From NCBI GenBank assembly GCA_963718525.1, contig OY970355.1, positions 2,464,001 through 2,528,000 of the forward strand: a DNA stretch of 64,000 nt, written 5' to 3'. Made by a program: the position numbers and the translations under genes. Positions 6,531-6,710 of the stretch are shown here, piece after piece. Origin of the DNA: Candidatus Dormiibacterota bacterium. Its GTDB lineage: Bacteria > Chloroflexota > Dormibacteria > Aeolococcales > Aeolococcaceae. Numbering within the stretch: position 1 is the first letter of the stretch; each line of letters opens with the position of its first letter. The notes under the pieces are model-generated. The model ran no database searches. It was given only the letters and a program-made list of their open reading frames with translations, and had not been told where the DNA came from.

Positions 6531-6710
6531 CGTGGCAGTGGCGGAAGCACCGCTGTTGCTGCGAGGCTCCCGTGGGGCCGAGGGTGACCCGGCATTTTTC
6601 TGTCGAGCCCTCGGGCTCTGACCTGGTTAGGGCCAGTCCCCTCGGTCTTCGCGGGTGGCCGAGTGACCTCATAGCGGCGTGAATACTGAACGGCAGGAAT
6701 GTCCGAGGCC
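6531..6710 (+). ncRNA. Predicted IS110 bridge RNA
   Basis: 5' hairpin 6531-6563. Stem 6569-6588/6636-6655 encloses target guides 6591-6600 and 6626-6632 around a GAGCC-CTCG-GGCTC hairpin. Donor loop carries CATAGCGGCG (6670-6679, identical to 7797-7806) and GCAGG (6693-6697). Confidence 0.85.

What the first reader, a model, noticed from the sequence alone, without database searches (positions are those of the whole stretch)
6531..6710. Complete bridge-RNA architecture in the IS110 left non-coding end
Seen: a 14-bp 5' hairpin (6531-6563). A ~19-bp stem (6569-6588/6636-6655) encloses an internal loop with two target-matching segments either side of a CUCG-capped hairpin. A second loop carries CATAGCGGCG, a perfect 10-nt copy of the element's own right end (7797-7806), and GCAG(G), complementary to the left end (T)CTGC. 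This order matches the IS621-type bispecific guide RNA (established). The recombinase keeps DEDD and the C-terminal Ser, so this is a candidate new programmable recombinase from a high-GC lineage.
Basis: partly seen in the sequence, partly recalled or inferred. Interest (0 to 1): 0.88.

Follow-up and report, generated by a model that had tools for sequence, protein, structure and literature searches.

The report
IS110 bridge RNA targeting IS256 genes
The left end of this small mobile element encodes a two-loop guide RNA of the already known IS110 "bridge RNA" type. Its guides match the element's own ends and a conserved spot in another transposon's gene, so it is a sound but ordinary new member of a known class.

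Summary
Window 6513-7806 is a 1,294-bp IS110-family element flanked by a CC/TC core. It sits inside an IS256/Mutator-family transposase gene at the codons for VGIF|PN.

Its left end (about 6532-6714) has a 5' hairpin and two stem/internal-loop/hairpin modules. The guide matches are:
- Loop 1: GGCAUUUUUC is the same sense as left target plus core, and GUUAGGG is complementary to core plus right target.
- Loop 2: CAUAGCGGCG is identical to the element's right end, and AC(G)GCAGG is complementary to core plus left end.

Comparative support is strong:
- A covariance model finds the RNA upstream of the recombinase in 73 related loci.
- 37 of 41 stem pairs show compensatory changes.
- RDG and left end covary in 20 of 20 close loci.
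- One relative (L014) has changed both target guides to match a different insertion site.
- In distant relatives, guides match their own flanks far more often than other loci's flanks.

DEDD and Ser are conserved. The two genomic copies are identical, but their IS256 hosts are only about 90% alike.

This is a new member of a known kind. Durrant et al. 2024 predicted bridge RNAs for most IS110s. The modest new point is that the whole clade targets IS256-family transposase genes. No transcript or activity data exist.

The parts
6503..6510 (+). Left target (LT) GGCATCTT, inside the IS256-family transposase gene (codons G-I-F)
   Evidence: Comparison of empty and occupied sites. Pfam Transposase_mut on 5423-6511.
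6511..6512 (+). Left copy of the core dinucleotide (TC here, CC in the second genomic copy)
   Evidence: Three empty sites read ATCTT-YC-CCAAC. Occupied sites read ATCTT-YC-TGCGT...GGCG-CC-CCAAC. Metagenome contigs join 6510 to 7807, skipping 1,296 nt, in 4 of 4 runs laid.
6513..7806 (+). IS110-family element proper (left end TGCGTCTG..., right end ...CATAGCGGCG)
   Evidence: A second, identical copy lies at about G000:C1:2242518-2243812.
6521..6526 (+). Candidate -10 hexamer TACGCT. It would pair with the -35 in the right end only in the circular form (18-nt spacer).
   Evidence: Spacing computed. A junction promoter is established for IS110/IS621 (Durrant 2024). Inferred here, not shown.
6531..6563 (+). 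5' stem-loop of the bridge RNA (14 bp)
   Evidence: The close relatives listed mostly fold into a long hairpin at the same place with different sequence. Energy z-scores are weak: z < -1 in 20 of 56.
6575..6648 (+). Target-binding loop module: outer stem 6575-6588/6636-6648, inner hairpin 6602-6609/6614-6622
   Evidence: Consensus fold. Compensatory changes in helices 1 and 5.
6591..6600 (+). Left target guide GGCAUUUU+UC. It has the same sense as LT plus core, so it would pair with the bottom strand. It has one U where the target has C, which gives a U.G wobble.
   Evidence: In relative L014 this segment is GGAGUGUUCC and the left flank is GGAGTGTT|CC.
6626..6632 (+). Right target guide GUUAG+GG, complementary to core plus right target CC+CCAAC, with one A.C mismatch at the Pro-codon third base
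   Evidence: L014 has GUUUAGG against right flank CC|TAAAC. Cognate versus non-cognate test.
6633..6634 (+). Candidate handshake guide CC. Its first C can pair with donor position 7 (G) but not with target position 7 (T).
   Evidence: Inference from the IS621 rule (Hiraizumi 2024) applied to the sequence.
6653..6714 (+). Donor-binding loop module: stem 6653-6660/6707-6714 and 6663-6667/6701-6704
   Evidence: (helices 6-8).
6670..6679 (+). Left donor guide CAUAGCGGCG, identical to the right end 7797-7806. It is followed by UG (6680-6681), which does not match the CC core.
   Evidence: Shuffles. The right end was present in 19 of 22 close loci; the LDG matched it 10/10 in 13, 9/10 in 5 and 8/10 in 1.
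6690..6697 (+). Right donor guide AC(G)GCAGG, complementary to core plus left end CC+TGCGT with one bulged G
   Evidence: Three covarying states in 20 of 20 loci: GCAGG/CCTGC, ACAGG/CCTGT and GUAGG/CCTAC. Discontiguous RDG pairing is described for IS621.
6698..6699 (+). Candidate handshake guide AA, which can pair with target positions 7 and 6 (TT) but not with donor position 7 (G)
   Evidence: Inference. The first base is A in all close relatives in alignment A3 except L020.
6730..6735 (+). Ribosome-binding site GGAGGG
   Evidence: Homologues start at MVIIGID.
6741..7796 (+). IS110-family recombinase, 351 aa, with DEDD (D7, E55, D97, D100) and Ser268
7793..7798 (+). TTGACA, a perfect -35 hexamer overlapping the stop codon and facing outward
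   Evidence: TTGAC(A) sits at the same place in nearly all right ends listed for relatives.
7797..7806 (+). Left donor (right end of the element) CATAGCGGCG
7807..7813 (+). Right copy of the core (CC), then right target CCAAC. The IS256 transposase frame resumes here (PNSASLLRLF...).

Best explanation
Window 6513-7806 is an intact IS110-group insertion sequence. Its left non-coding end encodes a bridge RNA of about 180 nt.

Proposed cycle, by analogy with IS621:
1. Excision gives a circle.
2. The right-end TTGACA and the left-end TACGCT then lie 18 nt apart and form a promoter.
3. Transcription starts near 6532 and yields a 5' hairpin, a target-binding loop and a donor-binding loop.
4. Recombinase dimers hold the two loops.
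5. [quoted passage not shown] This site is the VGIF|PN motif of IS256-family transposase genes.
6. [quoted passage not shown]
7. Ser268, together with the DEDD site, cuts next to the core, and the strands are exchanged through a Holliday junction.

Shown here: the anatomy, the guide/flank matches, the covariation, the conserved catalytic residues and the exact boundaries. Inferred: transcription, the start site, RNA-protein binding, and the chemistry.
For: Boundaries and core
- Three empty IS256 sites and two occupied ones define them.
- Contigs in 4 of 4 metagenome runs join 6510 to 7807.

Structure
- The consensus fold gives two stem/loop/hairpin modules.
- The window RNA can adopt this fold at -84.6 kcal/mol, against an MFE of -88.5.
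- Model R1 hits 76 places in 100 related loci. Of these, 73 lie on the + strand just upstream of the recombinase gene, down to 37% protein identity.
- In the window's own genome R1 hits only the 2 IS110 copies.
- On those hits 92.6% of cells are paired, against 63.3% in shuffles and about 40% when partners are slid. Both-side changes occur in 37 of 41 pairs. The covariation score is 0.617 against 0.164, with 0 of 500 shuffles as high.

Donor guides
- RDG and the left end are complementary in 20 of 20 close loci, across three covarying states.
- The right end was present in 19 of 22 close loci. LDG matches it 10/10 in 13, 9/10 in 5 and 8/10 in 1. The CAUAG-to-CAGAG change is mirrored in the right end.

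Target guides
- L014 has LTG GGAGUGUUCC and RTG GUUUAGG. It sits between GGAGTGTT|CC and CC|TAAAC.
- The LTG 9-mer matches its own upstream flank at 8/9 or better in 18 of 43 unique loci, against 28 of 1,804 non-cognate pairs.
- The RTG complement matches its own right flank at 7/8 or better in 41 of 47 loci, against 33 of 1,916 non-cognate pairs. Outside the IS256 clade the figure is 29 of 32.

Protein
- PF01548 plus PF02371.
- D7, E55, D97, D100 and S268 align to the IS621 catalytic residues.

Activity
- The two copies are identical over the whole element, while their IS256 hosts are about 90% identical.
- At the T-containing site, the left junction keeps the target's TC and the right junction carries CC. 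This fits top-strand cleavage 3' of the core, as in IS621.
Against: - No RNA data. No listed run is on record as RNA, and only contigs were available.
- Single-sequence folding is not significantly better than shuffles (z = -1.61).
- No Rfam family matched.
- The two bases after LDG (UG) do not pair with the CC core. The same UG follows LTG beyond its core-binding UC.
- RTG has an A.C mismatch with this copy's target, and LTG needs a U.G wobble.
- The -10 hexamer is weak and is not clearly conserved in relatives.
- Three perfect target sites in the same genome are unoccupied.
- In 25 of 43 unique loci the LTG test scored below 8/9. Uncertain guide register in distant relatives probably explains part of this.
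- The alignment used for the pair counts was fitted to the model, which favours the structure.
Confidence: 0.9

Rival explanations
1. The structured left end is only a cis-acting leader that controls recombinase translation or stability. The matches to the flanks and ends would then be incidental.
For: The RNA lies directly upstream of the RBS and start codon. Small RNAs have been proposed to modulate recombinase expression in ISPpu9 (mentioned in Durrant 2024).
Against: A leader gives no reason for loop bases to covary with DNA outside the transcript. Yet this is seen:
- RDG with the left end in 20 of 20 loci.
- L014 retargeting.
- Cognate versus non-cognate enrichments.
Confidence: 0.03
2. 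The repeated segments are DNA-level subterminal repeats bound by the recombinase protein. No RNA would be involved.
For: CATAGCGGCG occurs twice as DNA, at 6670 and 7797. Many transposases do recognise repeated end sequences (general knowledge, not from a call).
Against: - 37 of 41 stem pairs show compensatory changes that preserve RNA pairing.
- Two of the four segments match the target, not the element, and they change with the target.
- One segment of each pair is direct and the other complementary, as in the RNA-guided model.
Confidence: 0.03
3. The architecture is a true bridge RNA, but this copy is a silent relic that no longer moves.
For: Three matching IS256 sites in the genome remain empty. 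In the integrated state no -35 lies upstream of the -10. No circle junction appeared in the laid contigs, although contigs could hardly show one.
Against: - The ORF is intact and all five catalytic residues are present.
- The two copies are 100% identical inside IS256 hosts that are about 90% identical, which implies a recent move.
- All four guides still match.
Confidence: 0.12

Closest known systems
IS621 bridge RNA and recombinase (E. coli; Durrant et al. 2024 PMC11208160; Hiraizumi et al. 2024 PMC11208158; PDB 8WT6-8WT9)
   Same: - The RNA is encoded in the left end and is about 180 nt (IS621: 177 nt).
- It has a 5' stem-loop followed by target-binding and donor-binding internal loops.
- The 5' guides read like the top strand and the 3' guides are complementary to it.
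- The core is included in RTG, RDG and LTG.
- RDG pairing is discontiguous.
- The positions just 3' of RTG and RDG fit the handshake rule.
- The -35 lies in the right end.
- DEDD plus Ser are conserved.
   Different: - The protein is distant. With the single sequence, only the C-terminal domain aligns significantly (E = 3.8e-6).
- The core is CC/YC rather than CT.
- LDG matches 10 nt of the donor, but the next two bases (UG) do not match the core.
- The target is a protein-coding motif of another transposon, not a REP element.
- The host lineage is high in G+C.
- There are no experiments.
ISCro4 transposase (PDB 9T56)
   Same: It is the best PDB sequence match with the single protein (E = 1.3e-7) and a member of the same recombinase family.
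   Different: Only residues 205-334 align. Nothing about its RNA was examined here.
[quoted passage not shown]
   Same: An IS110-family element specialised to insert into another mobile element.
   Different: These belong to the IS1111 group, whose RNA is in the right end. They target non-coding terminal repeats. The present clade targets a coding motif inside the IS256-family transposase gene.
Unnamed 'IS110 family transposase' on Microbacterium sp. YJN-G plasmid pYJNG (NZ_CP060403.1)
   Same: - 61% protein identity.
- Same target, GTCGGCATCTT|CC...GGCG|CC|CCAAC.
- LDG equals the right end.
- RDG ACAGG matches left end CCTGT.
   Different: It is annotated only as a transposase gene, and no RNA is annotated. 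The table PLSDB distributes omits pseudogenes and RNA genes.

Membership tests
IS110-family (IS110 group) bridge recombinase element | [quoted passage not shown] | tested here: met
   PF01548 E = 5.8e-25 and PF02371 E = 2.8e-19. D7, E55, D97, D100 and S268 align to IS621 D11, E60, D102, D105 and S241.
IS110-family (IS110 group) bridge recombinase element | Left non-coding end longer than the right, with the RNA encoded in the left end | tested here: met
   The left end is 228 nt (6513-6740). The right end is 10 nt beyond the stop codon (7797-7806).
IS110-family (IS110 group) bridge recombinase element | Site-specific insertion around a short core, without long terminal inverted repeats or a long duplication | tested here: met
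   Empty versus occupied sites share only the YC/CC dinucleotide. A 1,296-nt skip joint is seen in 4 of 4 runs.
IS621-type bridge RNA | [quoted passage not shown] | tested here: met
   Covariation.
IS621-type bridge RNA | First loop: 5' strand matches left target plus core (bottom-strand pairing), 3' strand is complementary to core plus right target | tested here: met
   GGCAUUUU+UC against GGCATCTT+TC, and GUUAG+GG against CC+CCAAC with 1 mismatch. L014 retargeting. Enrichment tests.
IS621-type bridge RNA | Second loop: 5' strand matches left donor (right end) plus core, 3' strand is complementary to core plus right donor (left end) | tested here: inconclusive
   LDG matches the right end 10/10. 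RDG matches core plus left end and covaries in 20 of 20 loci. However, the two bases after LDG (UG) do not match the CC core, so the 'core included in LDG' part is not met.
IS621-type bridge RNA | First loop variable and second loop conserved among orthologues | tested here: met
   In the alignment of 76 hits, LTG and RTG differ widely between lineages, while LDG stays close to (G/C)AUAG(G/C)(A/G)GCG.
IS621-type bridge RNA | Handshake guides pair with position 7 of the non-cognate DNA and not with the cognate DNA | tested here: inconclusive
   The sequence fits. C6633 pairs with donor G7 and not with target T7. A6698 pairs with target T7 and not with donor G7. In this clade the target and donor hardly vary at these positions, so covariation could not be tested. 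L020 is an exception.
IS621-type bridge RNA | Promoter rebuilt across the right-end/left-end junction of the circle, giving a transcript of about 150-250 nt | not testable with these tools
   TTGACA-N18-TACGCT geometry is present. No RNA holder is listed and only contigs were available.
IS621-type bridge RNA | The RNA binds the recombinase and is required for, and reprogrammes, recombination | not testable with these tools
   Needs biochemistry or genetics.

The most novel reading that the evidence does not exclude
This is a cross-phylum clade of bridge-RNA elements, seen in records labelled Actinomycetota and Chloroflexota, including Acidimicrobiia MAGs. They appear specialised as parasites of IS256-family transposons.

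Their target guides read a protein-coding motif (VGIF|PN) that selection on the host transposase keeps constant. U.G wobbles or tolerated mismatches fall at codon third positions. This would let one guide set hit IS256 relatives that are only 35-65% identical.

In this clade the crossover also seems to lie 2 nt upstream of an ancestral TG core. Chloroflexota relatives still share that TG at both junctions. The shift leaves a conserved but unpaired UG after both 5' guides. That would be a natural variant of core recognition.
Probability: 0.5. Interest if true: 0.5.

Novelty: new member of a known kind. Interest (0 to 1): 0.35.

Why it matters
- It adds a well-delimited bridge recombinase from a high-G+C host, with exact donor, target and core known from natural empty and filled sites. 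It also has a natural retargeted relative. That makes it a convenient orthologue for testing bridge recombination in actinobacterial or other GC-rich hosts.
- It shows how RNA-guided insertion can be aimed at a conserved coding motif of another transposon. This bears on how mobile elements compete within genomes.
- It does not change what is known about the mechanism.

Tried and rejected
- Rfam 15 scan of 6000-8300 at E <= 1: no family matched on the RNA. The only hit was a chance CcsR1 match inside the CDS.
- Sequencing runs: no RNA holder is listed. The four runs laid were contigs only, so they give no information on starts, ends or expression. No circle junction was seen. Empty-site joints were seen.
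- Alternative core models:
  - Core CG, or CC placed after ATCTTYC. Both predict an extra CC at the left junction that is not observed, so both were rejected.
  - Core TG in the donor against CC in the target. This is compatible with the junction sequences only through a mismatched heteroduplex that always resolves the same way. All close loci with a visible junction show the same junction type, and the RTG register argues against it. It was judged less likely but is not excluded.
- L014 target. The right flank looks like a tRNA T-arm (GGTTCGAATCC). ARAGORN found no tRNA or tmRNA in the locus, nor in the empty site reconstructed inside a script.
- Promoter conservation. The script stopped with an error after 4 of 17 loci. 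The -10 hexamers it had found in relatives were weak.
- 5' hairpin statistics. The median z-score over 56 distinct upstream 48-mers was only -0.33, so energy alone does not establish conservation of that hairpin.
- Literature. Three full-text searches found no paper describing IS110-family insertion into IS256 transposase genes. The one candidate read in passages (PMC2516522) was irrelevant. Supplementary tables of Durrant 2024 list natural targets and may include this clade, but supplements were closed. ISfinder could not be queried.

Papers:
- PMC11208160: passages.
- PMC11208158: passages.
- PMC13626964: abstract and outline only.
- PMC2516522: passages.
- All others: search listings only.

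Full report
**What is there**

The window carries an ORF at 6741-7796 with Pfam DEDD_Tnp_IS110 and Transposase_20. It lies inside a Mutator/IS256-family transposase gene. The 5' part of that gene is 5423-6511, and its frame resumes at 7808 with PNSASLLRLF....

The genome is one 3.34-Mb contig. It holds two copies of the IS110 element that are identical over the whole element. Each sits in an IS256-family copy, and those two hosts are only about 90% identical to each other.

Three uninterrupted IS256 sites read ...GGCATCTT-YC-CCAAC.... The occupied sites read ...GGCATCTT-YC-TGCGTCTG...CATAGCGGCG-CC-CCAAC.... So the element is 6513-7806, flanked by a dinucleotide core. The core is TC at the left and CC at the right in the window copy, and CC at both sides in the second copy.

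Contigs from four soil-metagenome runs join 6510 to 7807, skipping exactly 1,296 nt. That is the empty form of the same site.

**The RNA**

The MFE fold of 6512-6745 gives the 14-bp hairpin 6531-6563 and a long stem around an internal loop. Its energy is not significantly better than shuffles (z = -1.61).

Nineteen homologous left ends align well. Their consensus fold gives two modules:
- Module 1: stem 6575-6588/6636-6648, enclosing an internal loop and the hairpin 6602-6609/6614-6622 with a CUCG loop.
- Module 2: stem 6653-6660/6707-6714 plus 6663-6667/6701-6704, enclosing a second internal loop.

The window RNA can adopt this architecture at -84.6 kcal/mol, against an MFE of -88.5. Its outer base pairs are not conserved, and part of that sequence forms the second module's stem.

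A covariance model built from 17 sequences found 76 matches in 100 related loci. Of these, 73 lie on the + strand directly upstream of the recombinase gene, down to 37% protein identity. In the window's own genome the model hits only the two IS110 copies, which are also the only two PF01548 genes.

On the alignment of those hits:
- 92.6% of cells form pairs, against 63.3% in shuffles and 35-42% when partners are slid.
- 37 of 41 pairs have both-side changes.
- The covariation score is 0.617 against 0.164, with 0 of 500 shuffles as high.

The alignment was fitted to the model, which inflates these figures somewhat. The slid controls use the same alignment and still fall far below.

**Guides in the window copy**

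- LTG: GGCAUUUUUC (6591-6600) against left target plus core GGCATCTT+TC. This is 9 of 10 identical. The odd base is a U where the bottom strand has G.
- RTG: GUUAGGG (6626-6632) is the complement of CC+CTAAC, against the real CC+CCAAC. The single mismatch falls on the third base of the Pro codon.
- LDG: CAUAGCGGCG (6670-6679) equals the right end 7797-7806. Only 6 of 20,000 shuffles of the left end contain that 10-mer.
- RDG: AC(G)GCAGG (6690-6697) is the complement of CC+TGCGT with one bulged G. This resembles the discontiguous RDG pairing reported for IS621.

The strand logic is the one published for IS621: 5' strands pair with the bottom strand and 3' strands with the top strand.

The two bases 3' of RTG (CC) and of RDG (AA) fit the handshake rule of Hiraizumi et al.. 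Each can pair with position 7 of the other DNA and not with its own. This is inference only.

**Covariation of guides with DNA**

In the close clade (22 loci including the window):
- RDG and the left end occur in three states, always complementary: GCAGG/CCTGC in 11 loci, ACAGG/CCTGT in 8 and GUAGG/CCTAC in 1. That is 20 of 20 loci where both are visible.
- The right end is present in 19 loci. LDG matches it 10/10 in 13, 9/10 in 5 and 8/10 in 1. The right end was absent or not found in L107, L097 and L020.
- The CAUAG-to-CAGAG change in L105 and L109 is mirrored in their right ends. Two of the single mismatches would be G.T wobbles.

The target guides hardly vary in this clade, because nearly all members sit in the same IS256 motif. 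The exception is L014:
- Its LTG is GGAGUGUUCC and its left flank is GGAGTGTT|CC.
- Its RTG is GUUUAGG and its right flank is CC|TAAAC.
- This is a natural retargeting of both halves of the first loop.

In more distant relatives:
- The LTG 9-mer matches its own upstream flank at 8/9 or better in 18 of 43 unique loci, against 28 of 1,804 non-cognate pairs.
- The right end could be located in 48 of 73 loci, 47 of them unique. The RTG complement matches its own right flank at 7/8 or better in 41 of 47, against 33 of 1,916 non-cognate pairs. Outside the IS256 clade the figure is 29 of 32.
- The right-flank window included the last 4 nt of the element, so conserved core and handshake bases contribute to that score.
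- The 25 of 43 LTG misses probably reflect imprecise guide register from the model alignment and variable left-end lengths. I did not resolve them.

**Protein**

A profile of 31 homologues aligns to IS621 (8wt6_A) over both domains. Window D7, E55, D97, D100 and S268 fall on IS621 D11, E60, D102, D105 and S241, where chain numbering is +2. With the single sequence, only the C-terminal domain aligns significantly.

**Promoter**

TTGACA (7793-7798) overlaps the stop codon, and TACGCT lies at 6521-6526. In a circle they would be 18 nt apart: 8 nt of right end, 2 nt of core and 8 nt of left end. In the integrated state the corresponding upstream hexamer is GTGGTG. TTGAC(A) is present at the same place in the right ends of relatives. 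The -10 is weak in relatives. No transcription data exist.

**Target biology**

IS256-family transposase fragments flank the element in 19 of the 20 other loci of the IS256-targeting clade, at 35-100% amino-acid identity to the window's IS256. So these are insertions into diverged IS256 relatives at the same VGIF|PN codons.

The records are labelled Actinomycetes, Acidimicrobiia and Chloroflexota. A named example is plasmid pYJNG of Microbacterium sp. YJN-G.

The exact 15-mer GGCATCTTYCCNAAC occurs three more times in this genome, all unoccupied and all in IS256 copies.

Three full-text searches found no paper on this target choice. Supplements and ISfinder could not be checked.

**An unexplained detail**

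Both 5' guides are followed by a conserved UG. In eight Chloroflexota relatives with both junctions visible, a TG stands at both junctions, and this UG would be the core-binding pair.

In the window clade TG stands only at the left junction, as the first two bases of the element. The empty sites, RTG and RDG all point to CC/YC as the core. The LTG 10-mer then covers 8 nt of target plus the core, while the LDG 10-mer covers 10 nt of donor and leaves the core opposite UG.

A model with the crossover at TG (donor) against CC (target) cannot be excluded from sequence alone. It would need a mismatched core that always resolves the same way.

At the T-containing site, the left junction keeps the target's TC and the right junction has CC. 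This agrees with top-strand cleavage 3' of the core, as in IS621.

**Verdict**

This is a genuine, probably recently active, IS110-group element with an IS621-type bridge RNA.

Durrant et al. predicted bridge RNAs in 85.7% of catalogued IS110s and in thousands of orthologues. So it is a new member of a known kind.

The earlier notes of this scan on the same place are first-reader notes that say the same. They are not independent evidence.

Noticed in passing
window 5423-6511 and 7808-7972: The host of the IS110 is an IS256/Mutator-family transposase gene split at VGIF|PN. An earlier first-reader note says this IS256 itself sits in a rep gene inside another element. I verified only the IS110-in-IS256 layer.
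   Followed up: partly
L014:1008-1024 and 2310-2360: A relative at 67% protein identity is retargeted to GGAGTGTT-CC-TAAAC. Its right flank carries a tRNA T-arm-like GGTTCGAATCC. ARAGORN finds no tRNA or tmRNA in the locus or in the reconstructed empty site.
   Followed up: partly
window 6680-6681 and 6601-6602; Chloroflexota loci L022, L027, L028, L030, L032, L039, L046, L063: A conserved UG follows both 5' guides. In the Chloroflexota relatives a TG is shared by both junctions and looks like the core. In the window clade the core appears shifted 2 nt, to CC, and the UG is left unpaired.
   Followed up: partly
L097:2550-3000: Downstream of this relative's recombinase match, no right end was found. 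Instead the sequence translates to another IS110-like N-terminus (FGIDADERSH...). This may be a second IS110-family element nested in or next to the first.
   Followed up: no
L020:2400-2700: This relative's recombinase match stops at residue 300. It is followed by GC-rich tandem-like repeats (GGCAGGCGCCGGGCCG...) and palindromic AAGTTACAACTTGTAACTT motifs. No right end was found.
   Followed up: no
window 6492-7837 in runs X5 and X6: Soil-metagenome contigs carry a variant of the element with 31-32 differences. It sits at the same target but in a different IS256 relative, because the contig diverges upstream of 6492.
   Followed up: no
G000:C1:444014 and 447965: Relaxed target patterns hit two further places outside the recognised IS256 copies. 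I did not check whether these are IS256-family relatives or chance matches.
   Followed up: no
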